A stretch of DNA of 64,000 nucleotides from Bacillota bacterium (GCA_022706885.1 JAKJBR010000006.1:670-64669), one strand, 5' to 3'. Positions 39,087 through 55,660 are shown, counted from the first letter of the stretch. Translations and numbers: made by a program. Notes: a model not told the origin generated them from the sequence alone.

Positions 39087-39170
39087 AAGACACATAAATA
39101 GGAACTTTTGACATATACATTAATGAATATTAAGGTATAATTTAGTATGCATATATGGAGGGAAAGTACT

Positions 39171-40406
39171 ATGGCTTTGACTGAAAAAGAAATATCCGTT
39201 TTGCAGGAAACGGCAAAGAAATATATGGAATATGCAAATCTTCCGGTCCAAAAAGAAAAGATAGAACTTTGGAAGGCATTGAACAGAGGGAAAATGCAAC
39301 GACCCATGGTTGTAATGGACCAATTTCCCTGGAATGAGCTTAACAATGAAGGCGAACTGGATTTGTTTGTGGAGGATCCCGTTTTCCGAAGAGTAGAGCG
39401 CTATTTGAAAAGGGAAATATATAAGTATAAGCATTTTCCCGTGGATATGGTTTTAGACCCGTTTATACGGGTTCCCAAAGCCATAGACAATACCGGTTTC
39501 GGTATAAAAGTGGAAGAAGAAACGCTGTATGCATCGGGCAATGTCAGTTCCCATGTTTTTAAAAACCAACTGGAGACAAAGGAAGATGCTGAAAAGATTA
39601 AAGACATGATAATAACCCATGACGAGAAAGAGACCGAAAGAAGATTTGAAACGGCATCGGAAATATTCAAAGGAATTGCTCCGGTAATGATGGAAGGCAG
39701 AACCTGTCATCTGGGTGTATGGGATAATCTCACGCAGTTCATGGGAGTGGAGAATATATATTTCGATTTAGTAGACGAGCCGGATAAGCTTCATCTGTTT
39801 ATGGAGAGAATGACCACTTCGGTTATAAAGGGAGTTGAGCAGACAAACAGGCTTAAGATATATGATACAAACGCAAATACCTGCCATTGCTCCTATGTGT
39901 ATACGGATGAATTGCTGCCTGACAGCGGAATGGGTAAAGAAAGCATTACGCAAAACGGTTGGGCATTCGGTCTTGCGCAGCTGTTCTCTTCGGTATCACC
40001 GGCAGTGACCGAAGAGTTCGAGATTCCCTATGTAACAAGGATGGCAAAATACTTCGGTATGATATACTACGGATGCTGTGACCGATTGGATGACAGGCTG
40101 GAGATGGTACTGACAATACCCAACTTAATGAAAGTATCCTGCAGTCCCTGGTCGGACAGAGATGCATTTGCCGAAAAGATAGGCAAAAAAGTGGTAATGA
40201 GCAACAAGCCCACTCCGGCATTTGTAGCCACAACCACAATGGATGAAGAGGAGATAAGGAAAGATCTTCAGTGGACGGTAGATGCGGCAAGAAAGAACAA
40301 TGTAAATCTGGAAATGATACTGAAGGATATATCCACGGTGAAATGTCAACCGGAAAGACTGACAAGGTGGGCTGACATAGCAATGGATGTGGTAAATAAC
40401 TACTAA
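39171..40406 (+). CDS. uncharacterised enzyme, paralog B of the 29563 gene
   Basis: GGAGGG ribosome-binding site before the ATG at 39171. Shares the YYGCCD...IPNLMKVSCSPWSD...SNKPTP block with paralog A. Confidence 0.5.
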   Translation: MALTEKEISVLQETAKKYMEYANLPVQKEKIELWKALNRGKMQRPMVVMDQFPWNELNNEGELDLFVEDPVFRRVERYLKREIYKYKHFPVDMVLDPFIRVPKAIDNTGFGIKVEEETLYASGNVSSHVFKNQLETKEDAEKIKDMIITHDEKETERRFETASEIFKGIAPVMMEGRTCHLGVWDNLTQFMGVENIYFDLVDEPDKLHLFMERMTTSVIKGVEQTNRLKIYDTNANTCHCSYVYTDELLPDSGMGKESITQNGWAFGLAQLFSSVSPAVTEEFEIPYVTRMAKYFGMIYYGCCDRLDDRLEMVLTIPNLMKVSCSPWSDRDAFAEKIGKKVVMSNKPTPAFVATTTMDEEEIRKDLQWTVDAARKNNVNLEMILKDISTVKCQPERLTRWADIAMDVVNNY

Positions 40407-40411
40407 AGATT

Positions 40412-40486
40412 GTCCCGGTAGTATAATGGATAAAACGGGGGATTCCGGTTCCTCAGATGCGGGTTCGATTCCTGTTCGGGACGCCA
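40412..40486 (+). tRNA. tRNA-Arg (anticodon CCG), with encoded CCA
   Basis: Hand-folded cloverleaf. Acceptor GTCCCGG/TCGGGAC with discriminator G and CCA. T-arm GCGGG-TTCGATT-CCTGT. Anticodon arm GGGGA-TTCCGGT-TCCTC, which gives U33 and CCG at positions 34-36. D-loop AATGGATA carries the GG pair. The D-stem has only 3 of 4 pairs, so the isotype call is tentative. Confidence 0.6.
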
Positions 40487-40489
40487 TAA

Positions 40490-40531
40490 AAGAAACGTCT
40501 ATCGCCTAAAAGACGTTTCTTCTTGTGTTTT
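40490..40531 (+). terminator. intrinsic terminator after the tRNA
   Basis: AAGAAACGTCT-loop-AGACGTTTCTT perfect 11-bp stem followed by CTTGTGTTTT. Confidence 0.6.
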
Positions 40532-40595
40532 AGGCAATCATCGGACTGTTTTGGAGTGAAAAATGGTCATAAAATTTTGCAAATGTATGCTAAAT

Positions 40596-40605
40596 GCTTG
40601 CAAGC
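40596..40605. promoter_or_regulatory. perfect 10-bp palindrome GCTTGCAAGC upstream of relB (candidate autoregulatory operator)
   Basis: Lies about 50 nt upstream of the relB start, inside a promoter-like region (TTGCAA ... TACTAC). Confidence 0.35.
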
Positions 40606-40657
40606 TGCAAAAATTTGTGACATACTACAACCAGATAAACATAAGGAGGTTTTTCCA

Positions 40658-40963
40658 ATGGCAAATACAGCTACCGTATATGCAAGAATTGATCCCGAAC
40701 TCAAATCGGATGTCGATTCCATTCTTAATAAGCTTGGAGTAACTCCGTCCGCACTTATCCAAATGCTCTATAGCCAAATCAAACTGACAGAAAGCATTCC
40801 GTTTGAGATTAAAATTCCGGCTAAGATTCCGCTTTCACTCGGAAGCATGTCTGTTGAACGGTTGAACACTGAACTTCAGAAAGGAGTTGACTCGGTGAAA
40901 GCCGGTCGTGTACACTCTGCGGATGAGGTTGACGGAATACTGAATAAGGAGTTCGGTATCTGA
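40658..40963 (+). CDS. relB: RelB/DinJ-family antitoxin
   Basis: AAGGAGG ribosome-binding site. N-terminal RHH-like region (ATVYARIDPELKSDVDSILNKLGVTPSALIQML). Followed 2 nt later by a RelE/ParE toxin gene. Confidence 0.7.
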   Translation: MANTATVYARIDPELKSDVDSILNKLGVTPSALIQMLYSQIKLTESIPFEIKIPAKIPLSLGSMSVERLNTELQKGVDSVKAGRVHSADEVDGILNKEFGI

Positions 40964-40965
40964 TA

Positions 40966-41283
40966 GTGAAGTATTCTGTAAACTATTCCGATGAAGCACT
41001 GGACGATCTTCGGGATATTTATAGCTATATATCCGAATCTCTTATGGAACCGACCATTGCTGCCGGACAGGTTAACCGTATCCGTACTGAAATTAAAGCA
41101 CTTGACAGACTGCCGTTTCGTCACAGTGTTGTTGATTGGGAACCATGGCATACAATGGAAATGCGTCACTTTCCGGTAGACAACTTCGTTGTTTTTTATC
41201 TGGTGGAAGATAAAAGCGTAAATGTTGTTCGCATTTTTTACGGCAGACGGGATATTGAATCAATTATAAAGAATTCCAAATAG
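40966..41283 (+). CDS. relE: RelE/ParE-family toxin
   Basis: 105 aa, GTG start. MKYSVNYSDEALDDLRDIYSYI...FRIFYGRRD matches the ParE/RelE fold signature. Confidence 0.7.
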   Translation: MKYSVNYSDEALDDLRDIYSYISESLMEPTIAAGQVNRIRTEIKALDRLPFRHSVVDWEPWHTMEMRHFPVDNFVVFYLVEDKSVNVVRIFYGRRDIESIIKNSK

Positions 41284-41640: not shown

Positions 41641-41771
41641 TCCGTTCTTGCACAAGTGTAGTGCCAAGTTTTCTTAATATTAGCACAACGCAATCTTTGT
41701 AATGAAAGTTTTCACTTACGGTAAACTATCGTGTATAATTGTATCAGCAAAACAACGACGGATGTGTTGAT

Positions 41772-43436
41772 ATGAGAAAAACAAATATAGTAAAAGCCTT
41801 TATTATCATTGCTCTCGTATTACTTATTATTGTATATACTCCCGCTGTCCTCTGGTGGACAGGCAAGGTTTCTTTACCTGTCTTTTTTACATACATGCGT
41901 ACAGTTATTCATGTCGGTCTTCTCGTCGCATGGGCTATGTCGGTTTACTATCGCATTATTCATAAACAGGTTAGGAGATACCTTATTTCCATAGGCGGTC
42001 TGATGATTTTTTGGTTATTAATTAAAACACTGAAATACTATTTCGTATATGATGTAGATTCGACCCGTATGCTTTGGTATGCCTACTATATTCCGCTGCT
42101 TCTCATTCCCACTATGGGTGTTTTGGTTGCGTTGTCGCTTGGTAAGCCGGAAGATTATCGTCTTCCGAAGTGGACGAACTATTTTTTTATCTGTGCTGTG
42201 ATTTTGGTTTTATTGGTGCTCACAAACGATTTTCACAATTTGGTTTTTATTTTTCCGAAAGGAGAGACGGGGTCAGACAAAAATGCTGCATTCAACATAA
42301 TATTTTTGGTCGTTATGGCGTGGGTGAATCTTGTAGGCACAGTCGCTATTATTCTCATTATTCTCAAGTGTCGCATTCCTAAAAGTCGGGCTGTCTTATG
42401 GTTACCGTTGGTTTCACTGTCGCTCACCATCCTATACGGGATTTTATATTTGATAAAATGGGCACCTGTCAGAGTGTTTCTCAACGACCCGACAGTGACA
42501 ATATGTATGCTCTTTATTGTTGTACTGGAAAGTTGTATCAAGTCCGGCCTTATACAGGCCAATACACTTTACGGTAAGTTGTTTTATGCGTCTTCCATAG
42601 GAATGCAGATTACGGATAGTAATTTTGATGTTCTTTACACTTCGGAAAGTGCAAAGAGTTTTAACATAAAGACTCTGAAAGCTGCTGCCGAAAAACCCGT
42701 CATTCCGAGTATGAGAGAAGGGTTACGTCTTTCCGGAGCACCGATAAAGAGAGGATATGTATTCTGGCAGGAAGATGTGAGTGAACTGCTCGGCGTGTTG
42801 GAGGAGCTTGCGGGAACGGCGGAAGAGTTGGAAAGTTACGGTGAGATTATTCGGGATGAAAACCGACAAAAGGAACGACGCAAAAAATTGGAAGAACGAA
42901 AAAGACTTTTTGTGAGTATGTGTGAACAAATATCTCCACAGGTAGAGTTGCTGACAAGGTATGTGGAAGAATTGGAGGCGACAGAGAACGAAGAAACGGC
43001 CAAATTGATTTTAAGCAGGATTTCGGTAATCGGTGCATATATGAAGCGACGCAGCAACCTTATCTTTTTAGCCGAGCAACCCTGTTCCTGTGCGACAGAG
43101 GAATTGCGTCTATGCCTGAACGAGTCGATGGCAAGCCTCAGGTTTTACGGTGTGGAATGTGCCTGCTTTTTTGATGAACTGATAGATTTTGACTTAACGG
43201 TTGCAACTCTTTTCTATGACTTTTTTGAAGTTGCGGTGGAGATGGCTCTGAATAATCTTTCACAAATGGTGGCGTCTTTTAATTACAAGAACAGCAATGT
43301 CGGTTTCTCGATTATGCTCTGTACGGACAGCGACATGAGCCTTATAACAAAAAAGTTTCCGGACGCCTCCGTAGAGAAAGAGGACGGCATATGGTATTGT
43401 ATGCTGGCTGCCGGGAAAGGAGAGGCTTTCACATGA
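41772..43436 (+). CDS. polytopic membrane protein with degenerate histidine-kinase-like cytoplasmic domain (no conserved His)
   Basis: At least 8 transmembrane segments, then a coiled coil, then a C-terminal region with HisKA_3/HATPase-like spacing but no phospho-acceptor His or G-boxes. The tool's start at 41739 is a TTG inside a TGTATAAT box, so the ATG at 41772 is preferred. Confidence 0.5.
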   Translation: MRKTNIVKAFIIIALVLLIIVYTPAVLWWTGKVSLPVFFTYMRTVIHVGLLVAWAMSVYYRIIHKQVRRYLISIGGLMIFWLLIKTLKYYFVYDVDSTRMLWYAYYIPLLLIPTMGVLVALSLGKPEDYRLPKWTNYFFICAVILVLLVLTNDFHNLVFIFPKGETGSDKNAAFNIIFLVVMAWVNLVGTVAIILIILKCRIPKSRAVLWLPLVSLSLTILYGILYLIKWAPVRVFLNDPTVTICMLFIVVLESCIKSGLIQANTLYGKLFYASSIGMQITDSNFDVLYTSESAKSFNIKTLKAAAEKPVIPSMREGLRLSGAPIKRGYVFWQEDVSELLGVLEELAGTAEELESYGEIIRDENRQKERRKKLEERKRLFVSMCEQISPQVELLTRYVEELEATENEETAKLILSRISVIGAYMKRRSNLIFLAEQPCSCATEELRLCLNESMASLRFYGVECACFFDELIDFDLTVATLFYDFFEVAVEMALNNLSQMVASFNYKNSNVGFSIMLCTDSDMSLITKKFPDASVEKEDGIWYCMLAAGKGEAFT

Positions 43437-44428
43437 AGTACAATATAAAGGGTCGCTCCATCAAGGAAAGTTTTGACAATTTACCTTCAGGCGTATGCTT
43501 TGCCGACAGCAAAGGTATGATTGTATTGTGTAACAGACAAATGCACAGATTATGTTGCATATTGCTCGGAACAGGTTTGCAACACATTTTTGAGCTCAGA
43601 GAGGCATTACAAACACCTACGGATACCGTTACACATGTTGAGGGAACAAATGATACTTTTCGTTTCCCCGACGGTCGGATATGGGAGTTTAGGGAAAGTA
43701 CGGTTACCGTTGTCGGCGGCAAAACATATACGCAGATACAGGCACTTTCTTTGACCGAACTGTATGCCAAAAAAACAGAGCTGGAGCAAAAAAATCGCGA
43801 ATTGGAAGAAGTGAATAAGCGGGCAAGGAAGCTTTATGCGGAGTTGGACAATACCGTTAGAGAGGAAGAAGCTTTTGCAATCAAAATGCGTATTCATAGC
43901 GATATAGGTTTACGGTTGCTTGCCACACATAAGGTGCTCCGTGAAGGCGGACTTACCGAACTTAAGGAAGCCGGGAAAATATGGAGAAGCACCCTTAATG
44001 TTTTCGGTATAGCCGATGCGGTGGCAAGTGATTATACAAATATAGAGAAAAAAACCTCAAGCAGGTCGGAGGAAATGCTCCATAACCTTATTAATTCCGC
44101 CGCAGGGATAGGCTTAAAAATCATTCTTGACGGTAATTTACCTGAGGACCGGGAACAAAGTTACCTTATTACTACCGCTATGAGGGAATGTGCCACCAAT
44201 ACGGTACGTCATGCCGGCGGTAATGAAATGAAAGTAAGGATATTTGAAGTAAAAAGCACACTTGTTGTATGGATTGAAAATAACGGAAAGCCGCCCGAGA
44301 GGAAAGTTGTAGAGGGCGGAGGTTTGTCCGATTTAAGAAAGCGTATAGAAAAGGCGGGCGGTACTATGAGAATAAAGAGCAGTCCTACATACAGATTGAC
44401 AGTGATTTTGCCCGGAAAGGAGAAATAA
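43433..44428 (+). CDS. cytoplasmic sensor histidine kinase (HisKA_3 / NarL-partner type)
   Basis: H-box MRIHSDIGLRL, N-box ECATNTVRHAGGNEM, and G-boxes ENNGKP...EGGGLSDLRKRIEKAGG. GGAGAGG ribosome-binding site. The start overlaps the upstream stop. Confidence 0.75.
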   Translation: MKYNIKGRSIKESFDNLPSGVCFADSKGMIVLCNRQMHRLCCILLGTGLQHIFELREALQTPTDTVTHVEGTNDTFRFPDGRIWEFRESTVTVVGGKTYTQIQALSLTELYAKKTELEQKNRELEEVNKRARKLYAELDNTVREEEAFAIKMRIHSDIGLRLLATHKVLREGGLTELKEAGKIWRSTLNVFGIADAVASDYTNIEKKTSSRSEEMLHNLINSAAGIGLKIILDGNLPEDREQSYLITTAMRECATNTVRHAGGNEMKVRIFEVKSTLVVWIENNGKPPERKVVEGGGLSDLRKRIEKAGGTMRIKSSPTYRLTVILPGKEK

Positions 44429-44431
44429 TCC

Positions 44432-45055
44432 ATGGTTAATGTACTTATTGTGGAAGATAAAATAATGCCTCGCGATTGCATGGAAGGCTATATCAAAAGC
44501 AGTGACCGCTATAGTCTTGTAGCCTCTATAACCAATGCGGGAATGGCGGAAATGACATGCATGTGTTATCCTGTCGACCTTATACTTATGGATGTTTGTA
44601 CCGAGAACAACGAAAGCGGCATTAAGGCCTGTTCCGTTATAAAGCGATACTTTCCCGATATTAAAGTTATTATAGTGACTTCCATGGCCGATTCAAGCTT
44701 TATAACCAAAGCAAGGGAAGCAAATGCGGACAGTTTTTGGTATAAGGAAGTAAGTGAAAATGAATTATTGGATATTATGGATCGTACAATGAGCGGCGAA
44801 TCGGTATGGCCGGATAAAGTACCCGAAGTACAGATCGGCAAAGCAAGCTCCTGCGAGTTTACTCAACGAGAGATGGAGGTACTTCGACTGATTGTAAGAG
44901 GTCTGACCGATGCCGCTATTGCGGAGGAGTTGTATATAAGTATAACCACAGTACGTACACATATAAGGGAGTTGCTCAAAAAATCAGGCTATAGCAACCG
45001 TGTAAGGCTTGCCTGTGATGTGATAAACAAAGATTTGATTGTCGAAGGATTTTAG
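44432..45055 (+). CDS. LuxR/NarL-family response regulator (REC + HTH)
   Basis: Receiver domain with the acceptor Asp in DLILMDV. C-terminal LuxR HTH (REMEVLRLIVRGLTDAAIAEELYISITTVRTHIRELLKKSG). Confidence 0.8.
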   Translation: MVNVLIVEDKIMPRDCMEGYIKSSDRYSLVASITNAGMAEMTCMCYPVDLILMDVCTENNESGIKACSVIKRYFPDIKVIIVTSMADSSFITKAREANADSFWYKEVSENELLDIMDRTMSGESVWPDKVPEVQIGKASSCEFTQREMEVLRLIVRGLTDAAIAEELYISITTVRTHIRELLKKSGYSNRVRLACDVINKDLIVEGF

Positions 45056-45214
45056 AAAATATATTATATCTATTCCGCACCGTTTTTCCGTACTACGGCT
45101 TCTTTTGTTGCAAAAATCATCATTTATGACGATATGTTTTTTATGCCCTTTTCCCTATAATTTAAAGTGACAAGGTGCTGTATATCACCTACTTAAGAAA
45201 AGGAAGGTGGCAGG

Positions 45215-45601
45215 GTGCGTCAAATTATTTTGAGCATGAAAGACTATATCTTTGCAGATGCTGTCGCACAGGCATTGCTGAATGAAAAGGGCAGTGATTT
45301 TGCCGTGCAAAAAACAAAAAGTCCGGAAGAAATACAAAAGTATTGCAAGATTACTTCTCCATATGCTCTGCTCATGGAAGTGACGGGATATCCGCCTTTT
45401 GCACTGTCGGAAAGGCTTGCTTTACGGGAGCAAGTAAAGAAACAAAATCCGAACTGCAAGATTGTTATTCTTGTGGACGAGAACTCGGAGAAAGAGATTG
45501 CAGCGCAGGTAAGACAGGCAAAAAAGGACGGTCTTATAGACCAGTTTATCTACGGTTCCACAAGTGCAAGCTACCTTGTGGCGATGATGGACACCTTGTA
45601 G
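45215..45601 (+). CDS. stand-alone receiver-like domain protein with Glu at the phospho-acceptor position (pseudo-receiver)
   Basis: CheY-like alternation of beta-strands and helices, but beta3 reads ALLMEVTG (E instead of D), the DD pair is KD, and the conserved Lys is not evident. Confidence 0.4.
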   Translation: MRQIILSMKDYIFADAVAQALLNEKGSDFAVQKTKSPEEIQKYCKITSPYALLMEVTGYPPFALSERLALREQVKKQNPNCKIVILVDENSEKEIAAQVRQAKKDGLIDQFIYGSTSASYLVAMMDTL

Positions 45602-45641: not shown

Positions 45642-48600
45642 ATGAAAGTAAAAAGGAAATTATTATCTGTTTTTTTGGTAATATCCATGTTGGCAGGGAT
45701 TCTGCCCTTAACCGCTCTGCCGGTATATGCGGCCAATCCGCCGGCGACAGATGTATCAGTATATACTACGGAAGGTAATCAAACTCTCGACTCCATGTAT
45801 CCGTACCTGGTTAACGGGAAGAAGGCAAAAACGGGTACTTTGGGAAGTGGCGGATGTACCGCCTATTTTGACCATACTACCGGTATCTTGACACTGCAGA
45901 ATCATAGCGGAGGTAATATAGTGAAAGGTTCTTTAGGGGGTAAAAAGGATTTGACCGTTAAGTTGGTCGGTACTAATGCTCTTACATCCGCTTTGCAAAA
46001 CATATCGGGCGGGGACCTCATAATCACGGCAGAGGATACCGCCACTCTTTCGATTACTAACAACACAGACACTAACGGTGTTATAACAGGCATAAGTACC
46101 GATATTACGGGAGTTAACGCCGGACCCGGAAGTATAACAATTAGAGGAAAAGCAAATATATCCATATACGTAGAAAACATAAGTACAGGTGTAGAATCCG
46201 GGGTCCGAGGTATCTTTGCTAAACAGGATATATCTATCCTTGATAATGCATCGGTGAATATTGAATGTATAGGCAAAGGGACGGGTTCCTACCCGGTATC
46301 AGGAATTCAAAGTACAAATAAAAGTGTAACATTCAACACAACGGGAAAAGTAAATATCGACTGTTCGGATGCACAGAACAAAAATCCATATGCTATTAAC
46401 AATATGCTAGCAAATATTTTAACCTCTGTCGATGAACTTACTCTAAAATGGACGAACGGAGGTCGTGGATATAGTTTAGTTGATGGTGGTATGTCATATG
46501 ATGTCACATCTTTTACCCGCAACATCAAAGAAGCTACACCAACCCAGCCCGGAATAGAGGTCTTCAAGAAAGGAACACCTCTTACTTTAACGATAGAAAA
46601 CGGCAAAAACAATTTCGGCAAAAAGGAAGGGCAATTTACCCACGGAGAAACAGTAAATGTTACGGCCAATTCCATTACCGGTCTGACATTTAAAAAGTGG
46701 GTAGCCACAGCCGGTATAATCGGATGTGCCACAGATTCTTCCACCACTTTAACCATGCCCGATGAGAATGTAACGCTTACGGCAATATATGATGTTTTTG
46801 CCGTACAACCTAAATCCGCCTATGTAAGCGCTACATCGAGAAAAGTCACTTTTTCTTTAAAGGCAACTCCTACTACTTATGCTCCCCGTTTAGTTACCGA
46901 ATCCGGAGATTATAACGACATAGTCGGGGAGACAACTTTCGGTCATGATGGCGCATTAAACTATTCAGAAGTTATTCGTTGTATTGGAATATTCGATGTT
47001 CCGAACGGCAATTACCGTATTGCCGCCAAATTTGACGATGTATGGTATTATAGCGATGTTTTCACGGTAGATTATAGTACCCATAGCATAACCGTTGACG
47101 GAGATGCGGTTGAGACTACCGACTACACAATAACGGGTGTAAGTGACTTCAGTTCTATACCGGACGGTACAAACCTGACAATCAATGCAGTTAATGATAT
47201 TAATGTTGACGGAGAGAATGTAGTCGCCGGCAGCTCAAAGACTATAGTTATCAATTCGTCCTATACCATAACCATTAATAAAAAGGTGAGCAATAGTGCA
47301 CCTACGGTAGTTGTAGGAAAGGAAACGCAAACCGGAAATGCAACTCCGAAGGCAAGTAGCGGTATTCCTGCAGCGATTGCGTATGAGGCGGATATGTCGG
47401 GATGGTTTAATGATGCTGACGGTGACGCTTTGACTTACTCGGTAGTATCGGCAAGGGAAGGCACAAATGATGTTTCCGCTCATGTGAGTGTTGCGGGAAA
47501 GCACATCACCTATACACCTGCTGCCGCACAAGCGGGTAAAAATGTAATTATAAAGATAAAAGCAAATGACGGACTTGCAGACAGTACGGATAATGTAACA
47601 ATAACCGTAACTGTAGAGGAAGTGCCTGCAGATGCGAAGATATATAAGGTAACTGTTGCCGGAGATGCTGCCGAGACTACCGACTACACAATATCGGGAG
47701 CAACCGACTTGAATGCGGTGCCGGACGGAACGAATCTGACAATCTATGCGGTTAATAACATTACCGTTAACGGTGAAATTGTGACTTGCGGAAACTCCAA
47801 AAATATAACTATCAATTCAGCTCAAACAATAACCATTAACAAAAAGGTGGGCAATAGTGCACCTACGGTAGTTGCAGGAAAGGAAGCACAAACCGGAAAT
47901 GCAACACCTGAGGCTAACTGCGGTCATCCTGAAGCAGTAATGTATGAGGCGGATATGTCGGGATGGTTTAATGATGTTGACGGTGATGTATTGACTTACT
48001 CGGTAGTATCTGCAACGGAAGGCACAAATGATGTTTCCGCTCATGTGAGTGTTGCAGGAAAGCACATCACCTATATACCTGCTGCCGCACAAGCGGGTAA
48101 AAATGTAATTATAAAGATAAAAGCAAATGACGGACTTGCAGACAGTACAGGTGATGTAACAATTACAGTGAGTGTAGCGGCGGTTCCGGCGGATACAACC
48201 TACAAAGTAACCATATACGGAAATGCCGTTATAACAACCGACTATACGGTATCGGTAGCCGACTTGAATGCGGTACCGCACGGAACTGATTTAATAATCT
48301 ATGCGGTTAATGATATTACCGTTAGTGGCGAGGATGTGGCGGCAGGCGGCTCTAAGACTATAGCATCAATCGTTTCACCCTGTGGCATTGAAGTTAAAAA
48401 GAAAAATAACGCACCTACGGTAGTTGCAGGAAAGGAAACGCAAACCGGAAATGCAACACCTGAGGCTAACTGCGGTCATCCTGAAGCAGTAAGGTATGAG
48501 GCGGATATGTCGGGATGGTTTAATGATGTTGACGGTGACACTTTGACTTACTCGGTAGTATCTGCAACGGAAGGCACAAATGATGTTTCCGCTCATGTGA

Positions 48601-51434
48601 GTGTTGCGGGAAAGCACATCACCTATACACCTGCTGCCGCACAAGCGGGTAAAAATGTAATTATAAAGATAAAAGCAAATGACGGACTTGCAGACAGTAC
48701 AGGTAATGTAACAATTACAGTGAGTGTAGCGGCAGTACCGGCGGATACAACTTATGTGGTAACCGTTAACGGAGATGCAGTTATAACAACCGACTATACG
48801 GTATCGATAGCCGACTTGAATGCGGTACCGCACGGAACTGATTTGATAATCTATGCGGTTAATGATATTACCGTTGACGGTGCGGTTGTGGTTGCAGGTG
48901 GCTCTAAGACAATAGCATCAATCATTTCACCCTACAATATAACCGTTAACAAAAAGACCGGTAATAACGCACCCACGGTAGTTGTCGGAAAGGAAACGCA
49001 AACCGGAAATGCAACACCTAAGGCTAACTGCGGTCATCCTGAAGCAGTAAGGTATGAGGCGGATATGTCGGGATGGTTTAATGATGTTGACGGTGATGTA
49101 TTGACTTACTCGTTAGTATCTGCAACGGAAGGTACAAATGATGTTTCCGGTGATGTATATATTTTAGGAGCAGATATCCGCTATACTCCTGCTGCGACAC
49201 AGGCCGGCAAGGATGTGATTATCGTAGTTAAAGCAAATGACGGATCTGCAGACAGTACAGGTAATGTAACAATTACAGTGAGTGTAGCGGCGGTTCCTGC
49301 GGATACAACCTATAAAGTAACCATGTACGGAGATGCCGTTATAACAACCGACTATACGGTATCGGTAGCCGACTTGAATGCGGTACCGCACGGAACTAAT
49401 CTGACAATCAATGCAGTTAACAATATTATCGTTGACGGCGAGAGTGTAGCGGCAGGCGGCTCAAAAGTTATTACAATCAATTCATCTCAAACAATAACGG
49501 TTAACAAGGTAGCTATACCCAAACACACGGTAACCTATGATGTAGACGGCGGCAGTTTAGCAGCGCCTACTCAGGACGATGTGGCGGAAGGTGCTACTTT
49601 TGCAGTTGCTTCATATGCAGGTACAAAAGCCGGATTTACATTCGGAGGCTGGAACGACGGTAGCAGTGATTATGTGGCCGGTGCCGTTTACACAATGGGA
49701 ACGCTAAACGTAACCTTGACGGCGGTATGGAATGTAGCGTCGATAGCCGTAACCGGAGTAAAATTGGATTCTTCAACATTAACTTTAACGGCAGGCGGTT
49801 CAGCCGGAACATTAACTGCAACGGTATTACCTATGGATGCCGCAAACAAGAACATAACATGGGCATCAAGTGATACTTCGACAGCAACCGTATCAAACGG
49901 TGTAGTAACTCCTGTAGCAGCGGGAACGGCGACTATTACCGTTACAACGGAAGACGGCGGTAAAACAGCTACTTGTACGGTAAAAGTAGTTCCTGCAAAA
50001 CCTACGGGACTTGTTGCAATAAAACCTACTACGGCAGGCGGTACCGACGGTATGATTACCGGCACAAGTGCAATTATGGAATATGCAAACAATGTTTCCT
50101 TTACAGGTGCCGTTAATTGTATCGGTACAAAGATTACGAACCTTTCGGCAGGAACATATTATGTAAGAGTAAAGGCAACCGTAGCACACGATGCCGGAGA
50201 GGCGACCACGGTTGTAGTTCCCGCATTTGTTGCTATTGAGGAAGAGGACGAGGACATTTATATTCCCGTTACCGCTTCCACTATTCCGGCAAATAACGGT
50301 GCGGTCAACATAGGATATATTGAATCCGAAGGTGTGGTATCATTGGATTTAACCGACGATAAGATAGAGGAGATTATTAAGAAGAGCAGTAAAGGGAATG
50401 TGGACTTTAATGTTTCCGGAATTGAAAATGCTACATCGGTTGAAATACCCAAAGAGGCATTTGCAGCATTCGGTAAAGCGGATATGTCTGTAACTGTAAA
50501 ACTGCCCGACGGAAGCATTACTCTTGATAAAGAAGCCGTTGATTCGGTTTCCGAACAGGCTGAAGGAGATTCGGTAAATATTGAACTATCAGTAATTGAA
50601 GCTAAAGAGTTGAACCATCTTCAGGAGCAATCGGTAAAAGCGGACGATATAGTTGTTGATATCAACATTAGCGACGGAAAAGGCAATTTGATTAAGACCT
50701 TTGACGGAGAACTGACAATACAGATTCCTTACAAGGGAACTTTACCGGTAACGGTCTGGTACTTAAATAATGCCGGTCAGTTGGAGAAAATAGAAGCAAC
50801 TTACAAAGAAGGAATCGTTACGTTCAAACTCAATCACCTTTCAGTATATGTACTGGGACAAGATAAAGACAGAACAAAAGATTGGGATAATCCTTTTACC
50901 GATGTAAATGAAAAGGATTGGTACTATGATTCAGTGAAGTTCGCACATATGAACAAACTGATGTACGGTGTTGGCTACAAGCAGTTTGACCCCCACGGTT
51001 CTATACCTCGCGGACTGTTGCTTACCGTACTGCATCGTTTGGAGAAAACGCCCGAACCGAAAGGATATGGCGCATTCAAAGATGTAGCGGCAAACAAATA
51101 TTACAGTAAAGCTGTCAACTGGGCTGCCGAGAATAATATTGTAACCGGTTACGGAGACGGAAACTTTGGCCCCAATGACCTTATTACAAGAGAACATTTG
51201 GCATTAATCCTTATGAACTATGCCAAGTACAAAGGTTTTGACACATCAAAAAAGGCGGATTTAGAAATATTTGCCGACTCAAAGAGTATTTCCATTTGGG
51301 CAAAAGAGGCTATGGCATGGGTTGTTGCCGAAGATATCTATGTAGGTGACCAAGCCAATCTGAATCCTGCCGGTAACGCCACACGTTGCCAAGTAGCGGC
51401 AATATTCAAGCGTTTCATTGAAAACGTAGAGTAA
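45642..51434 (+). CDS. giant SLH-anchored surface adhesin (cadherin-like repeats, Listeria-Bacteroides repeat, Big_2, FN3-like, 3 x SLH)
   Basis: Signal peptide MKVKRKLLSVFLVISMLAGILPLTALPVYA, followed by beta-rich domains. Four ~187-aa repeats carry DxDGD(A/V)LTYS cadherin-like motifs. A Listeria-Bacteroides (flg_new) repeat GGWNDGSSDYVAGAVY is present. A Big_2 domain reads VTGVKLDSSTLTL...ATITVTTEDGGKTATCTVKV. The C-terminus has three S-layer-homology domains (FTDVNEKDWYYDSV..., FKDVAANKYYSKAV..., ...). Confidence 0.85.
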   Translation: MKVKRKLLSVFLVISMLAGILPLTALPVYAANPPATDVSVYTTEGNQTLDSMYPYLVNGKKAKTGTLGSGGCTAYFDHTTGILTLQNHSGGNIVKGSLGGKKDLTVKLVGTNALTSALQNISGGDLIITAEDTATLSITNNTDTNGVITGISTDITGVNAGPGSITIRGKANISIYVENISTGVESGVRGIFAKQDISILDNASVNIECIGKGTGSYPVSGIQSTNKSVTFNTTGKVNIDCSDAQNKNPYAINNMLANILTSVDELTLKWTNGGRGYSLVDGGMSYDVTSFTRNIKEATPTQPGIEVFKKGTPLTLTIENGKNNFGKKEGQFTHGETVNVTANSITGLTFKKWVATAGIIGCATDSSTTLTMPDENVTLTAIYDVFAVQPKSAYVSATSRKVTFSLKATPTTYAPRLVTESGDYNDIVGETTFGHDGALNYSEVIRCIGIFDVPNGNYRIAAKFDDVWYYSDVFTVDYSTHSITVDGDAVETTDYTITGVSDFSSIPDGTNLTINAVNDINVDGENVVAGSSKTIVINSSYTITINKKVSNSAPTVVVGKETQTGNATPKASSGIPAAIAYEADMSGWFNDADGDALTYSVVSAREGTNDVSAHVSVAGKHITYTPAAAQAGKNVIIKIKANDGLADSTDNVTITVTVEEVPADAKIYKVTVAGDAAETTDYTISGATDLNAVPDGTNLTIYAVNNITVNGEIVTCGNSKNITINSAQTITINKKVGNSAPTVVAGKEAQTGNATPEANCGHPEAVMYEADMSGWFNDVDGDVLTYSVVSATEGTNDVSAHVSVAGKHITYIPAAAQAGKNVIIKIKANDGLADSTGDVTITVSVAAVPADTTYKVTIYGNAVITTDYTVSVADLNAVPHGTDLIIYAVNDITVSGEDVAAGGSKTIASIVSPCGIEVKKKNNAPTVVAGKETQTGNATPEANCGHPEAVRYEADMSGWFNDVDGDTLTYSVVSATEGTNDVSAHVSVAGKHITYTPAAAQAGKNVIIKIKANDGLADSTGNVTITVSVAAVPADTTYVVTVNGDAVITTDYTVSIADLNAVPHGTDLIIYAVNDITVDGAVVVAGGSKTIASIISPYNITVNKKTGNNAPTVVVGKETQTGNATPKANCGHPEAVRYEADMSGWFNDVDGDVLTYSLVSATEGTNDVSGDVYILGADIRYTPAATQAGKDVIIVVKANDGSADSTGNVTITVSVAAVPADTTYKVTMYGDAVITTDYTVSVADLNAVPHGTNLTINAVNNIIVDGESVAAGGSKVITINSSQTITVNKVAIPKHTVTYDVDGGSLAAPTQDDVAEGATFAVASYAGTKAGFTFGGWNDGSSDYVAGAVYTMGTLNVTLTAVWNVASIAVTGVKLDSSTLTLTAGGSAGTLTATVLPMDAANKNITWASSDTSTATVSNGVVTPVAAGTATITVTTEDGGKTATCTVKVVPAKPTGLVAIKPTTAGGTDGMITGTSAIMEYANNVSFTGAVNCIGTKITNLSAGTYYVRVKATVAHDAGEATTVVVPAFVAIEEEDEDIYIPVTASTIPANNGAVNIGYIESEGVVSLDLTDDKIEEIIKKSSKGNVDFNVSGIENATSVEIPKEAFAAFGKADMSVTVKLPDGSITLDKEAVDSVSEQAEGDSVNIELSVIEAKELNHLQEQSVKADDIVVDINISDGKGNLIKTFDGELTIQIPYKGTLPVTVWYLNNAGQLEKIEATYKEGIVTFKLNHLSVYVLGQDKDRTKDWDNPFTDVNEKDWYYDSVKFAHMNKLMYGVGYKQFDPHGSIPRGLLLTVLHRLEKTPEPKGYGAFKDVAANKYYSKAVNWAAENNIVTGYGDGNFGPNDLITREHLALILMNYAKYKGFDTSKKADLEIFADSKSISIWAKEAMAWVVAEDIYVGDQANLNPAGNATRCQVAAIFKRFIENVE
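47283..49506 (+). repeat. in-frame tandem repeat, 4 x 561 bp (about 187 aa per unit), high nucleotide identity
   Basis: Units start near 47283, 47844, 48400 and 48951. Long stretches are identical between units, for example GGATATGTCGGGATGGTTTAATGATGTTGACGGTGA. Confidence 0.85.
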
Positions 51435-51815: not shown

Positions 51816-52406
51816 ATGATAGCGTTAAAAGAGTACTTTAAAGAAAATCCTGTCATTACGAATAGGGATGCCGATAATATCGGGATAGGAAGACATGTTC
51901 TATCCGATTTGGCAAGTCAAGGAAAAATTGAAAGAATAAGACCGGGAGTATATCAAAAATCCGGTGAGATTTTAGATGATTTTGTTCTGATATCGTCCAA
52001 TAGAGATAGAGTTGTTTTTTCACACCAATCAGCCCTATATTTACATGATTTATCTGATCGTGTTCCGAACATCTTTAATATATCCGTACCTCAAGGATAC
52101 AATGCAAGCCACATCAAAAAGGGATATGCAAACCTGAAGATTCACTATATTAAAAAAGACTTATATCCTATCGGTATATCTGAAATACGAACACCGCTCG
52201 GAAATGTAGTTCAAGTTTATGATGTAGAAAGAAGCATTTGCGACATCATAGTTGATAGGGAAAAAATCGATGCGCAGATTTTTGTCGGTGCACTTTCCTC
52301 ATATTTCAAAGGAAAAAACAAGGATTTAAGAAAACTTATAAAATACGGCAGACAATTCGGGATCGAAGAAGAGATACGGCGTTATGTGGCGTTCTTTCGT
52401 GATTAA
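51816..52406 (+). CDS. AbiEi-like (type IV toxin-antitoxin / abortive-infection antitoxin) wHTH protein
   Basis: 196 aa. N-terminal wHTH-like region (ITNRDADNIGIGRHVLSDLASQGKIERIRPGVYQ) and the family-typical C-terminal extension. No AbiEii nucleotidyltransferase gene is adjacent. Confidence 0.55.
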   Translation: MIALKEYFKENPVITNRDADNIGIGRHVLSDLASQGKIERIRPGVYQKSGEILDDFVLISSNRDRVVFSHQSALYLHDLSDRVPNIFNISVPQGYNASHIKKGYANLKIHYIKKDLYPIGISEIRTPLGNVVQVYDVERSICDIIVDREKIDAQIFVGALSSYFKGKNKDLRKLIKYGRQFGIEEEIRRYVAFFRD

Positions 52407-52669: not shown

Positions 52670-52900
52670 ATGATTAAGCAGATAGAATCAAAGGAACTGG
52701 AGTTTGCTATATTTTGCATAGAAAACACAGCTGTGCATCTTGGCATTAAAGGGAGTGTTCTGTACAAGAAGCTTACCGAGGAAAGCGACATTCTTTATGA
52801 TTACATAATACCGCTGTATGATGCTCTTCATACTCAGAGTAAAGAATATATCGTGGATGATATCTTGAGGGTTATGGAGAAGAGAGGTATTGCGGCATGA
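52670..52900 (+). CDS. DUF3791-like small protein
   Basis: 76 aa, helical. Overlaps the downstream gene by 4 nt. Confidence 0.5.
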   Translation: MIKQIESKELEFAIFCIENTAVHLGIKGSVLYKKLTEESDILYDYIIPLYDALHTQSKEYIVDDILRVMEKRGIAA

Positions 52901-53367
52901 AACTATATCACGCTTCAAATGTAGAGGTTTCAAAACCTGACTTGGTTCATTCCAGAAAGAACCTTGACTTCGGTGTCGGTTTCTATACTACACCGATTTA
53001 TGAACAAGCTCTAAGTTGGGCAAACAGGTTTCGAAAGACTGAAGGTTATGCAGTTATTTCAGAGTATGTCTTTGACAAAACAGCTTATCAAACTTTAAGT
53101 ATACTTAAATTTGACGCCTATTCGGAAGATTGGCTGAATTTTATAATAAGCTGTCGTACAGGAAAAGACAACACAACTTATGATATCGTAATTGGCGGAA
53201 TAGCAAATGATAAGGTTTTTAACACAATTGAGCTTTATCTTGACAATCTGATTGATAGAAAAGAAGCAATTAAGCGACTTAAGTACGAAAGGCCTAATTC
53301 CCAATATTGTTTCAGGACGGAAAAAGCACTTGCTTATTTAAGTTTTGAAAGGAGCAACTGTTTATGA
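52897..53367 (+). CDS. DUF3990-like protein (GFY motif)
   Basis: 156 aa. MKLYHAS...DFGVGFYTTP matches the recalled conserved GFY signature of DUF3990. Confidence 0.5.
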   Translation: MKLYHASNVEVSKPDLVHSRKNLDFGVGFYTTPIYEQALSWANRFRKTEGYAVISEYVFDKTAYQTLSILKFDAYSEDWLNFIISCRTGKDNTTYDIVIGGIANDKVFNTIELYLDNLIDRKEAIKRLKYERPNSQYCFRTEKALAYLSFERSNCL

Positions 53368-53597
53368 AGGCTCACCCTATTTTGCTACAAAAGAAATATG
53401 CAAGGATTGTGGAACAGTTTGCAAAAAAACAGGGTATAGAAATTAGCACTGCTCTTGATTTTTTCTACGGTTCCATGGTGTATGTTTTGATGAGCGAAGG
53501 AATATCGGATTTTCACTGCATGTCGGATACATATATAGTTGATGAACTTATTATTGAGTATTCAAAAGCTTTGAAAAAGAATCAATTAGATAAGTGA
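53364..53597 (+). CDS. DUF3791-like small protein (second copy)
   Basis: 77 aa, paralogous in pattern to the 52670 gene. Overlaps the upstream gene by 4 nt. Confidence 0.5.
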   Translation: MKAHPILLQKKYARIVEQFAKKQGIEISTALDFFYGSMVYVLMSEGISDFHCMSDTYIVDELIIEYSKALKKNQLDK

Positions 53598-54791: not shown

Positions 54792-54978
54792 TTTGATATA
54801 CCTCTCTATAATTAAGATTATTATACTAAACATATTCATGAAAATCAAGGATTCAATCCCTGAAAAACGGGGATGCAATCCTTGAAAAGCATAAATTCCT
54901 GTTAAAGACAGGAACTTTATCCAAACATAAGTGAGGTATTTTTTGCGTAAATTTGTGCGGCAAATTGCTAAAACCCTC

Positions 54979-55660
<682 letters not shown>

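What the first reader, a model, noticed from the sequence alone, without database searches (positions are those of the whole stretch)
41772..45601. Four-gene signalling module: membrane pseudo-kinase, soluble HisKA_3 kinase, LuxR response regulator and Asp-to-Glu pseudo-receiver
The polytopic membrane protein carries a histidine-kinase-shaped C-terminus with no phospho-acceptor His or ATP-lid G-boxes. The next gene is a complete cytoplasmic HisKA_3 kinase with no membrane anchor, which suggests that sensing and catalysis are split between two polypeptides. The stand-alone receiver downstream has Glu at the acceptor position, making it a constitutive mimic or phosphate-insensitive connector. 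This is an unusual architecture and is probably the regulator of the adjacent giant adhesin.
Basis: partly seen in the sequence, partly recalled or inferred. Interest (0 to 1): 0.6.

Follow-up and report, generated by a model that had tools for sequence, protein, structure and literature searches.

The report
Two-component switch with two pseudo-partners
A gene set common in gut Clostridia joins an ordinary kinase-regulator signalling pair to a membrane protein shaped like a dead kinase and to a small dead copy of a receiver domain. The regulator's predicted DNA site lies directly in front of that dead receiver and a giant cell-surface protein, so the parts are real and widespread, but nobody has characterised them.

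Summary
All four genes exist as described.

- **G1 (41772-43436)** is a polytopic membrane protein. Its predicted C-terminus has a PAS-DHp-CA histidine-kinase fold but no His and no G-boxes, and this holds across 75 diverged homologues.
- **G2 (43433-44428)** is a soluble kinase with all catalytic motifs invariant. It matches DesK, so it is HisKA_3-class, although the Pfam HisKA_3 model does not score it.
- **G3 (44432-45055)** is a canonical NarL/LuxR response regulator.
- **G4 (45215-45601)** folds as a receiver (pLDDT 90) with Glu55 at the acceptor site. It has also lost the acidic pair, the Thr and the Lys, and Pfam does not see it.

- G1-G2-G3 are translationally coupled through ATGA overlaps. 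G4 is a separate transcription unit that heads the target operon.
- An 18-bp palindrome (45116-45133) sits about 30 nt upstream of the -10 hexamer before G4. It is conserved in position across dozens of species, and its sequence co-varies with G3's recognition helix.
- G4 is followed by variable cargo. Here it is the 1930-aa SLH protein.
- G4's divergence tracks the G2 DHp helices best, which suggests FixT/Osp-like feedback on the kinase.

I rate it a new variant of known kinds. No physical interaction was tested.

The parts
41711..41739 (+). Promoter-like site upstream of G1 (TTCACT-17-TATAAT)
   Evidence: Consensus scan, 10 of 12 matches. This is a consensus match only and has not been verified.
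41772..43436 (+). G1: 7TM membrane pseudo-histidine-kinase, 554 aa. Roughly, the TM region is aa 1-263, the PAS-like domain aa 276-336, the DHp-like hairpin aa 337-433 and the degenerate CA-like domain aa 441-548.
   Evidence: The His-equivalent residue is C384 (codon 42921-42923).
43433..44428 (+). G2: soluble PAS plus DesK/HisKA_3-class histidine kinase, 331 aa. Its start overlaps the G1 stop (ATGA). The phospho-acceptor H155 is at codon 43895-43897.
44432..45055 (+). G3: NarL/LuxR-type response regulator, 207 aa. The acceptor D54 is at codon 44591-44593. The recognition helix reads ISITTVRTHIRELLKK.
45116..45133 (.). 18-bp palindromic operator ATCATCA-TTTA-TGACGAT (7-4-7, 6 of 7 arm pairs), the predicted G3 binding site
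   Evidence: It is unique in the window. Equivalent palindromes lie 29-30 nt before the -10 hexamer in homologous loci: 34 of 84 under strict criteria, against 1.1 in shuffles. The sequence co-varies with the G3 recognition helix.
45156..45161 (+). -10 hexamer TATAAT of the G4 promoter, with no -35 consensus. The operator centre falls at about -43 if transcription starts about 7 nt downstream.
   Evidence: Read from the sequence. The position is conserved across loci. The transcription start has not been mapped.
45215..45601 (+). G4: stand-alone pseudo-receiver, 128 aa. E55 (codon 45377-45379) occupies the acceptor position, and the acidic pair, Thr and Lys are absent.
45642..51434 (+). G5: 1930-aa secreted surface protein and the cargo of the G4 operon. 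It has a signal peptide, InlB-B/Flg_new repeats, 4-5 tandem repeats of about 555 nt, a Big_2 domain and 3 C-terminal SLH domains.
   Evidence: The gap after G4 is 40 nt and contains no hairpin.

Best explanation
This is a four-protein signalling circuit with a hard-wired output.

1. G1 is a 7TM membrane protein whose cytoplasmic PAS-DHp-CA-like module has lost its His and its ATP-binding motifs. I infer that it detects a membrane or envelope cue and passes it to G2.
2. G2 is a soluble, catalytically complete kinase of the DesK/HisKA_3 class. It is made in fixed proportion to G1 through translational coupling. The coupling is shown. The G1-G2 contact is inferred.
3. G2 autophosphorylates on H155 and transfers the phosphate to D54 of G3, a NarL/LuxR regulator. 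This is inferred from intact motifs.
4. Phosphorylated G3 binds the 18-bp palindrome at 45116-45133, centred near -43 of a promoter that lacks a -35 element. It activates transcription of G4 and the 1930-aa SLH surface protein. The operator, its fixed spacing and its co-variation with the G3 recognition helix are shown. Binding and activation are inferred.
5. G4 is a receiver-fold protein that cannot be phosphorylated. It closes the loop by docking on the DHp helices of G2 and modulating the kinase, most likely inhibiting it, as FixT does to FixL and Osp does to CckA. This rests on correlated divergence and on analogy.
For: - **Gene boundaries and motifs:**
- **G2 class:** its profile matches DesK DHp plus CA at E 5.5e-12.
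- **G1 fold:** the C-terminus resembles a histidine kinase and matches the pseudo-kinase DivL and the phosphotransferase ChpT.
- **Synteny:** 39 of 53 distinct G4 copies with enough upstream sequence have G1-G2-G3 directly upstream on the same strand. The G1-to-G2 and G2-to-G3 junctions are mostly -4 nt. The G3-to-G4 gap is 142-207 nt in 30 of 39 loci, and many of these gaps carry a GC-rich hairpin next to T-runs.
- **Operator position:** the distance from palindrome centre to the -10 hexamer peaks sharply at 29-30 nt.
- **Operator uniqueness:** in the loci where I scored an operator, it occurs once per fetched locus, apart from one near-match in L060.
- **Operator co-variation:** operator identity correlates best with the G3 recognition helix (rho 0.67). 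The partial rho is 0.44-0.61 after controlling for G1, G2, G3-REC or G4, while the reverse partials are -0.04 to 0.30.
- **Orphan cassettes:** many G4 copies without a nearby TCS keep the same classes of operator.
- **G4 partner:** G4 pairwise identities track the two G2 DHp helices best (rho 0.68-0.70, 95% CI 0.56-0.79). The values are 0.51 for the G1 DHp, 0.46 for G3 REC and 0.38 for G2 CA. Bootstrap support against these three is at least 0.98.
- **Precedents:** FixT (PMC7078487) and Osp (PMC9430884) are receiver-like proteins induced by their own pathway that inhibit the kinase.
Against:
- Correlated divergence is weak evidence among co-inherited genes.
- G1 and G2 show no detectable sequence similarity (hhalign probability 0.6%). 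No G1-G2 fusion appears among the best 150 representatives.
- The window's operator has 6 of 7 arm pairs and sits 31 nt, not 29-30 nt, from the -10 hexamer.
- The scan found no terminator between G3 and the operator in this window, so read-through from the G1 promoter may also express G4 and G5.
- Simple docking does not explain two features. E55 is nearly invariant, and each cargo cassette carries its own G4 copy.
- 14 of 53 G4 copies have no adjacent TCS, and one locus (L003) has the TCS without G4.
- The sign of the feedback is unknown.
Confidence: 0.45

Rival explanations
1. DivL/DivK-like reverse signalling. G4 carries a phosphomimetic Glu and docks on the DHp-like hairpin of the pseudo-kinase G1 rather than on G2. 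G1 then switches G2 between kinase and phosphatase states.
For: The G1 model matches DivL (4q20) and ChpT (4qpk), and these hits have the best target-normalised TM scores in the list. DivL is a His-less kinase that reads DivK~P through its receiver-docking face (PMC4211667). A nearly invariant Glu at the acceptor site would suit a constitutive phospho-mimic. G1 keeps a conserved E-x-x-R-L-Y-D-x-L motif around the lost His.
Against: G4 divergence tracks the G1 DHp less well (rho 0.51) than the G2 DHp (0.68-0.70), with bootstrap support 0.98. There are no interaction data.
Confidence: 0.15
2. G4 acts on the regulator rather than the kinase. It heterodimerises with the G3 receiver domain and either locks an active DNA-binding dimer (positive feedback, bistable surface-protein expression) or poisons it.
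For: The closest structural matches of G4 include NarL-family receivers such as DesR, VraR and LiaR. The only detectable sequence relationship is to the G3 receiver (hhalign E 2e-4). Helix alpha5 and the C-terminus of G4 are highly conserved.
Against: The correlation of G4 with G3 REC is low (rho 0.46). The hhalign probability is only 45%.
Confidence: 0.15
3. G4 serves the cargo, not the signalling pathway. It could be a cytoplasmic factor needed for expression, secretion or anchoring of whatever is encoded behind it, or a connector to an unrelated pathway.
For: G4 always heads the cargo operon. It also occurs as operator-G4-cargo cassettes away from the TCS, sometimes twice per contig.
Against: The cargo is too varied for one shared handling step: SLH giants, LRR proteins, lipoproteins, SPFH and zinc-ribbon proteins. 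A receiver fold with a conserved docking face, and divergence that tracks the kinase DHp, point to signalling instead.
Confidence: 0.1
4. G1 is not the sensor for G2. G2 senses a cytoplasmic cue through its own PAS domain, and G1 is a co-transcribed membrane protein with a separate role, or a scaffold only.
For: G2 has its own N-terminal PAS-like domain. No fusion proteins and no sequence similarity link G1 and G2.
Against: The ATGA coupling is conserved, and G1 and G2 are adjacent in every locus with G1-G2-G3 upstream of G4. G1-PAS correlates with G2-PAS (rho 0.67) and G1-DHpCA with G2-CA (rho 0.70). G1 retains a kinase-like cytoplasmic module under purifying selection.
Confidence: 0.1
5. G1 and G4 are decaying duplicates of a kinase and a regulator with no function.
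For: Both lack every catalytic residue.
Against: Both are full-length and conserved across hundreds of species. G4 is the most conserved protein of the set (mean pairwise identity 0.59), and many of its columns are invariant.
Confidence: 0.02

Closest known systems
DivL-CckA-DivK circuit of Caulobacter (PMC4211667)
   Same: A histidine-kinase-fold protein without the phospho-acceptor His controls a genuine PAS-containing kinase, and a single-domain receiver protein feeds back into the pair. The G1 model matches the DivL structure 4q20.
   Different: DivL is from an alphaproteobacterium, has Tyr in place of His and keeps a fuller CA domain. DivK is a true phosphorylatable receiver. Here the receiver is itself dead (Glu), the pseudo-kinase carries a 7TM domain, and the kinase is a small soluble HisKA_3-class protein. 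No sequence homology was detected.
FixT (FixL-FixJ feedback inhibitor; PMC7078487) and Osp (CckA inhibitor; PMC9430884)
   Same: These are single-domain receiver-fold proteins whose genes are switched on by the pathway's own regulator and which inhibit kinase autophosphorylation. Like G4, Osp lacks the acidic pair and the Lys.
   Different: Both are alphaproteobacterial. Osp keeps the Asp. Neither is the obligatory first gene of a cargo operon. G4 has Glu at the acceptor site and is invisible to the Pfam Response_reg model. Homology to FixT or Osp was not tested.
DesK-DesR, LiaFSR, UhpABC and NarXL (HisKA_3 kinase with NarL-family regulator; LiaF and UhpC as membrane accessory sensors)
   Same: The G2 profile matches DesK. 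Its NCBIfam partial hits are to UhpB, NarQ and LiaS. G3 matches NarL-type regulators. The palindromic operator near -42 is typical of this class (my own knowledge). A separate membrane protein feeding a HisKA_3 kinase recalls LiaF-LiaS and UhpC-UhpB (my own knowledge).
   Different: LiaF and UhpC are not kinase-shaped. DesK, LiaS and NarX are themselves membrane-anchored. All G2 scores are far below the curated equivalog cut-offs, so G2 is not an orthologue of any of them.
RetS-GacS (a kinase-fold protein regulating another kinase by direct contact)
   Same: A kinase-like protein modulates a true kinase without needing its own phosphotransfer (my own knowledge).
   Different: RetS retains its catalytic motifs and receiver domains, and the two genes are not translationally coupled neighbours.
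Plant pseudo-response regulators (Glu at the acceptor position) and D-to-E activated receiver mutants such as PhoB D53E (PDB 2jb9, listed)
   Same: A receiver fold carries Glu in place of the phospho-Asp.
   Different: Plant PRRs are multidomain eukaryotic clock proteins (my own knowledge). The PhoB mutant is an engineered protein, not a natural family.

Membership tests
HisKA_3-class histidine kinase (G2) | H-box with a phospho-acceptor His in the first DHp helix | tested here: met
   H155 is invariant in 21 homologues and aligns to the DesK phospho-His in the profile match at E 5.5e-12.
HisKA_3-class histidine kinase (G2) | N, G1 and G2 boxes of the ATP-binding domain | tested here: met
   N256, N283-x-G285 and E294-G-G-G-L are invariant. 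Pfam HATPase_c is hit by 14 of 21 members. The window copy scores 19.5 bits, below the 26.4 cut-off.
HisKA_3-class histidine kinase (G2) | Match to the Pfam HisKA_3 (PF07730) model | tested here: not met
   There is no hit at E<=1 for G2 and none at E<=0.01 in 21 homologues. The class assignment rests on the DesK match and the H-box motif only.
HisKA_3-class histidine kinase (G2) | ATP-dependent autophosphorylation and transfer to the partner regulator | not testable with these tools
   This needs biochemistry.
NarL/LuxR-family response regulator (G3) | Receiver plus GerE HTH domains above the Pfam cut-offs, with the acidic pair, Asp, Thr/Ser and Lys present | tested here: met
   Response_reg scores 56.2 bits (cut-off 30.2) and GerE 52.4 bits (cut-off 23.5). 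E8-D9, D54, T83 and K105 were read from the sequence.
Receiver (REC) domain (G4) | (beta-alpha)5 CheY-like fold | tested here: met
   AF2 gives pLDDT 89.7 and pTM 0.86 with the element order E-H x5. The listed top 50 Foldseek PDB hits are receiver or CheY-like domains at TM 0.65-0.77.
Receiver (REC) domain (G4) | Phospho-acceptor Asp at the end of beta3, plus the acidic pair, Thr/Ser and Lys | tested here: not met
   E55, V87 and G114 align to D54, T83 and K105 of G3. By position, M8-K9 stand where the acidic pair should be. E55 is at least 90% conserved. G4 is therefore a pseudo-receiver, not a functional member.
Receiver (REC) domain (G4) | Match to the Pfam Response_reg model | tested here: not met
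   None of 30 family members hits it at E<=1.
Histidine kinase (G1) | DHp helical hairpin followed by a CA-type alpha/beta domain | tested here: met
   This holds at fold level only. The AF2 C-terminal region has block pLDDT mostly 70-90. Foldseek hits WalK, YF1, ThkA, DivL, ChpT and DesK at E 1e-6 to 1e-3. The G1 profile finds nothing by sequence in the PDB.
Histidine kinase (G1) | Phospho-acceptor His and ATP-binding N, G1 and G2 boxes | tested here: not met
   There is no His after residue 155. The His column reads Q39/E12/R7/H4 of 75. The Asn column is mostly Asp or Glu. No G boxes are present. G1 is a pseudo-kinase.
Pfam HisKA_7TM (PF16927) membrane domain (G1) | Score above the Pfam gathering threshold | tested here: met
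   The score is 30.6 bits against 28.6, covering residues 51-251. Most homologues carry the precomputed hit. The match is marginal.
FixT/Osp-type feedback pseudo-receiver (G4) | Gene transcriptionally activated by the pathway's own regulator | tested here: inconclusive
   The operator sits at activator distance and co-varies with the G3 recognition helix. No expression or binding data exist.
FixT/Osp-type feedback pseudo-receiver (G4) | Direct binding to the kinase and inhibition of its autophosphorylation | not testable with these tools
   The only support is indirect: G4 divergence tracks the G2 DHp helices (rho 0.68-0.70).
DivL-type pseudo-kinase (G1) | Binds a single-domain receiver through the DHp docking face and controls a partner kinase | not testable with these tools
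   G1 has fold similarity to DivL. The G4 correlation with the G1 DHp is only 0.51.

The most novel reading that the evidence does not exclude
This would be a Gram-positive, independently evolved counterpart of 'reverse' two-component signalling. The pathway's own output gene would encode a permanently phospho-mimicking receiver (Glu55). A kinase-fold protein would read that receiver: either the G2 DHp or the His-less G1. The amount of a dead receiver, rather than a phosphate, would then carry the feedback signal.

In addition, operator-G4-cargo would form a portable cassette. Any surface-protein gene placed behind it would join the regulon and add to the feedback dose. That would explain why each cargo operon carries its own G4 copy.
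Probability: 0.2. Interest if true: 0.75.

Novelty: new variant of a known kind. Interest (0 to 1): 0.5.

Why it matters
Pseudo-kinases and pseudo-receivers are known mostly from a few alphaproteobacterial circuits such as DivL/DivK, FixT and Osp. Here both kinds sit together in one compact module.

The module is widespread in anaerobic Clostridia from guts and digesters:
- Relatives of G4 were found in 254 genome stretches from the one-genome-per-species collection.
- G4 has more than 1000 protein clusters at 90% identity.
- Carriers include Oscillospiraceae, Lachnospiraceae, Dysosmobacter, Faecousia and Oscillibacter.

The module appears to control large cell-surface proteins, which shape how these bacteria attach to hosts, substrates or each other. 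The operator is easy to recognise and its sequence changes along with the regulator's recognition helix. The regulon can therefore be predicted genome by genome, and the system could serve as a natural set of orthogonal regulator-operator pairs. G4 also shows that receiver-fold proteins can escape the standard Pfam model, so censuses of two-component proteins probably undercount them.

Tried and rejected
- **G1 and G2 as paralogues:** profile-profile comparison of G1 and G2 found no significant similarity (probability 0.6%).
- **G1 against the PDB by sequence:** nothing was found. Only the fold search was informative.
- **Autoregulation:** I looked for a second copy of the operator upstream of G1. 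None was found in the window apart from a 2-mismatch match at position 56, 41 kb away, and none in the loci where an operator was scored, apart from one near-match in L060.
- **Terminator between G3 and G4:** the scan found none in this window, although many homologous loci have a hairpin and T-runs there.
- **First automated palindrome search:** it picked up GC-rich hairpins upstream of the operator and A/T runs instead of the operator. I replaced it with a search anchored on the -10 hexamer.
- **L003:** this locus has the TCS without G4. The region after G3 shows a terminator but no palindrome.
- **Mobility:** G4 has no match in the plasmid or phage collections. The tRNA-Arg 3' end is not repeated downstream, so I found no defined island borders.
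- **RNA elements:** Rfam found only the tRNA.
- **Tandem Repeats Finder on G5:** it found nothing because the repeat period exceeds 500 nt. The repeat finder resolved the repeats.
- **Literature:** six full-text searches found no description of this module. The library lacks most subscription journals.

Full report
**What is at the coordinates**

Four + strand ORFs fill 41772-45601.
- G1 runs from 41772 to 43436 (554 aa). The ATG at 41772 is the start used by an identical database protein and by homologues.
- G2 runs from 43433 to 44428 (331 aa). This length matches the roughly 330-aa homologues. Its ATG overlaps the G1 stop as ACATGAAG.
- G3 starts 3 nt after G2 and runs from 44432 to 45055 (207 aa).
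- G4 (45215-45601, 128 aa) follows a 159-nt gap. It has a GTG start and a GGAAGGTGG ribosome-binding site.
- A 1930-aa ORF starts 40 nt after G4 (45642-51434). It has a signal peptide, InlB-B/Flg_new repeats, Big_2 and three SLH domains.

**G1 is a membrane pseudo-kinase**

- Residues 1-263 contain at least seven hydrophobic segments. They give a marginal Pfam HisKA_7TM hit of 30.6 bits against a cut-off of 28.6.
- No His occurs after residue 155.
- The AF2 model is poor in the membrane part. Residues 276-548 have block pLDDT mostly 70-90. They show a small PAS-like sheet, a long helical hairpin (337-403 and 407-433) and an alpha/beta domain.
- Foldseek matches this region to PAS-DHp-CA kinases (WalK, YF1, ThkA, VicK, DesK). 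It also matches the His-less DivL and the non-ATP-binding ChpT, at E 1e-6 to 1e-3.
- A remnant of a HisKA_3-type H-box survives as E375-x-x-R378-L379-x-x-x-L383. The His position itself (C384) reads Q39/E12/R7/H4/M4/C2 in 75 homologues of 28-57% identity.
- The N-box Asn column is mostly Asp or Glu, and there are no G boxes.
- The G1 profile finds nothing by sequence in the PDB.
- The loss of catalytic residues is therefore old and family-wide. It is not a local mutation.

**G2 is a complete soluble kinase**

- It has no hydrophobic segment and weak PAS hits at its N-terminus.
- H155, N256, N283-x-G285 and E294-GGGL are invariant in 21 homologues.
- The family profile matches DesK across DHp and CA at E 5.5e-12. 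The motif k-m-r-v-H-d-d-i-G lies over DesK's D-L-H-D-T-L-G.
- Partial NCBIfam hits are to UhpB, NarQ, LiaS and MctS.
- The Pfam HisKA_3 model itself does not score G2 or any homologue. 'HisKA_3' is correct as a class but not as a Pfam membership.

**G3 is canonical**

Response_reg and GerE both score above their cut-offs. E8-D9, D54, T83 and K105 are present.

**G4 is a cryptic pseudo-receiver**

- Neither Pfam nor NCBIfam recognises it, and none of 30 family members hits Response_reg at E<=1.
- With a 30-sequence alignment, AF2 gives a confident (beta-alpha)5 fold (pLDDT 89.7, pTM 0.86).
- The best PDB matches are all receiver domains, including DesR, PhoB, FrzS, VraR and CheY, at TM 0.70-0.77.
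- hhalign against the G3 receiver pairs E55 with D54, V87 with T83 and G114 with K105. M8-K9 occupy the place of the acidic pair.
- All five catalytic positions are therefore gone, not only the Asp.
- E55, the VDEN motif and the IDQFIYGS motif are invariant or nearly so.
- G4 is the most conserved protein of the set, with mean pairwise identity 0.59.

**Distribution and gene order**

- G1 has more than 1300 homologue clusters in the word-indexed search. In the exhaustive search it has 2626 representatives, of which 1112 score E<=1e-30.
- G4 has 1042 clusters. It has relatives in 254 stretches of the one-genome-per-species collection. These come from Oscillospiraceae, Lachnospiraceae and other Clostridia, including Oscillibacter sp. 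PC13, Dysosmobacter and Anaeromassilibacillus.
- Of 53 distinct G4 copies with at least 4.3 kb upstream, 39 have G1-G2-G3 directly upstream on the same strand.
- The G1-to-G2 and G2-to-G3 junctions are mostly -4 nt (ATGA).
- The G3-to-G4 gap is 142-207 nt in 30 of 39 loci.

**The regulatory site**

Aligning the sequences upstream of G4 shows an 18-bp 7-4-7 palindrome followed by a TATAAT-like hexamer and no -35 element.
- The distance from palindrome centre to the -10 start peaks sharply at 29-30 nt. Counts are 21 and 13 loci, against 0-6 at the other distances.
- Under strict criteria 34 of 84 regions qualify, against 1.1 in shuffles with a maximum of 6.
- With looser criteria, 37 of 46 complete loci carry the palindrome.
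- In the window the site is ATCATCATTTATGACGAT at 45116-45133, 31 nt before TATAAT at 45156-45161. It is unique in the 64 kb.
- That spacing puts the centre near -42 or -43, the usual place for a class II activator. The transcription start is inferred, not mapped.

The palindrome sequence falls into classes that follow the G3 recognition helix:

| Operator arms | G3 recognition helix pattern |
|---|---|
| ACTATCA...TGATAG | ..AVRWH.. |
| ACTACCC...GGGTAG | ..DVKWH.. |
| ATTACCC...GGGTAAT | ..TVKAH.. |
| ATCCCCC...GGGGGAT | ..TVKS.. |
| ACTATTA...TAATAGT | C.KANIRWH.. |

- Operator identity correlates best with the recognition helix (rho 0.67).
- This holds after controlling for G1, G2, G3-REC or G4 (partial rho 0.44-0.61). 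The reverse partials are -0.04 to 0.30.
- In the loci where an operator was scored, it occurs once per fetched locus, apart from one near-match in L060. The G1 promoter is therefore not a target.
- Many loci have a GC-rich hairpin between G3 and the operator, with T-runs beside it. The window has no clear one.

**What follows G4**

- The cargo varies between species. It includes SLH giants of 400-2600 aa, BspA-type LRR proteins, SBP lipoproteins, SPFH plus zinc-ribbon proteins, DUF4428 and DUF6935.
- G4 copies without a neighbouring TCS mostly keep an operator of the same classes. They are often followed by SLH proteins.
- The conserved unit is therefore TCS plus operator-G4, with exchangeable cargo.
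- In this window the cargo is the 1930-aa SLH protein.

**How it probably works**

- Phosphotransfer from G2 to G3 and activation at the palindrome follow from intact motifs and from the operator evidence.
- G1 as the input for G2 is inferred from two observations. The translational coupling is conserved. Divergence is also correlated between G1-PAS and G2-PAS (rho 0.67) and between G1-DHpCA and G2-CA (rho 0.70).
- For G4, I compared pairwise-identity matrices over 46 loci. G4 tracks the two G2 DHp helices best (rho 0.68-0.70, CI 0.56-0.79).
- The other values are 0.51 for the G1 DHp, 0.46 for G3 REC and 0.38 for G2 CA. Bootstrap support against these three is at least 0.98.
- There are two precedents for a receiver-like protein that its own pathway induces and that inhibits the kinase. 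These are FixT on FixL (PMC7078487) and Osp on CckA (PMC9430884). Like G4, Osp lacks the acidic pair and the Lys.
- Together these make kinase-directed feedback the best single reading.
- The correlation method is crude and the genes are co-inherited, so I give the complete chain 0.45.
- The rivals cannot be excluded without interaction data. They are G4 docking on G1 as DivK does on DivL (PMC4211667), G4 pairing with the G3 receiver, and a cargo-related role.

**Novelty**

- Six full-text searches found no description of this module.
- Each ingredient has a precedent. The combination does not, as far as I could find.
- That combination is a 7TM pseudo-kinase, a soluble HisKA_3-class kinase, a NarL-type regulator and a Glu pseudo-receiver that leads the target operon, all in Clostridia.
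- I classify it as a new variant of known kinds, of moderate interest.

Noticed in passing
window 40412-41283: A tRNA-Arg(CCG) gene (40412-40486) is followed by a RelB/ParE toxin-antitoxin pair (40655-41283) directly upstream of the module. Downstream of the SLH gene lie AbiEi (51816-52406), DUF3990 (52897-53367) and an AAA_14/DUF4143 ATPase (53586-54995, - strand), then the pyrimidine operon from 55067. This looks like a variable island next to a tRNA, but I found no integrase and no repeat of the tRNA 3' end.
   Followed up: partly
window 47143-49507: The SLH protein gene contains 4-5 tandem copies of a unit of about 555 nt (about 185 aa). The 300-nt core is 85-96% identical at the DNA level. 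The long antisense ORFs at 47817-48281 and 48375-48833 lie inside these repeats.
   Followed up: partly
window 30822-34015 (- strand) and 39147-40406: Two adjacent ORFs of about 530 aa on the minus strand (30822-32411 and 32408-34015) and a 419-aa ORF (39147-40406) have no Pfam match at E<=0.001.
   Followed up: no
L004 1-7800: In one metagenomic relative the same module, followed by a 1451-aa SLH protein, sits right after conjugation genes: TrbC-like, TrbL, PrgI, a VirB4-like ATPase and an NlpC/P60 hydrolase. The module may travel on integrative conjugative elements. G4 has no match in the plasmid or phage collections.
   Followed up: partly
L036, L043, L051, L053, L054, L059, L069, L070, L073, L077, L080, L084: One sublineage has longer open frames for G1 (about 720-840 codons between stops, and representatives of 769-772 aa with an N-terminal extension) and for G2 (about 425-480 codons). 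It uses the ACTATTA/ACTATCA operator class and the C.KANIRWH recognition helix.
   Followed up: no
L003 8001-12539: One locus has G1-G2-G3 without G4. G3 is followed by a terminator and an MreB-like gene, with no palindrome. The target of this system must lie elsewhere in that genome.
   Followed up: partly
L019 and L055: Two G4 copies occur on one contig (L019: 3513-3896 and 7998-8378; L055: 2098-2535 and 6479-6907). Each heads different cargo, and one copy of each pair is more diverged. Simple feedback does not explain why each cargo operon keeps its own G4.
   Followed up: no
loci L010, L018, L044, L049, L061: In some species the cargo after G4 is an SBP_bac_8 lipoprotein followed by a protein of about 530 aa with a C-terminal GerE (LuxR) HTH (Pfam checked for L010 and L044 only). 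This second regulator could extend the cascade.
   Followed up: no
G1 residues 375-390 (window 42894-42941): Around the lost His, the G1 family keeps a motif that is conserved in its own right: E-Q-N-R-L-Y-D-x-L-Q-x-x-T-x-x-Q. Gln is commonest at the His position, and a second Gln (53 of 75) lies six residues later. I could not decide whether this reflects a retained phosphatase-like or docking function.
   Followed up: no
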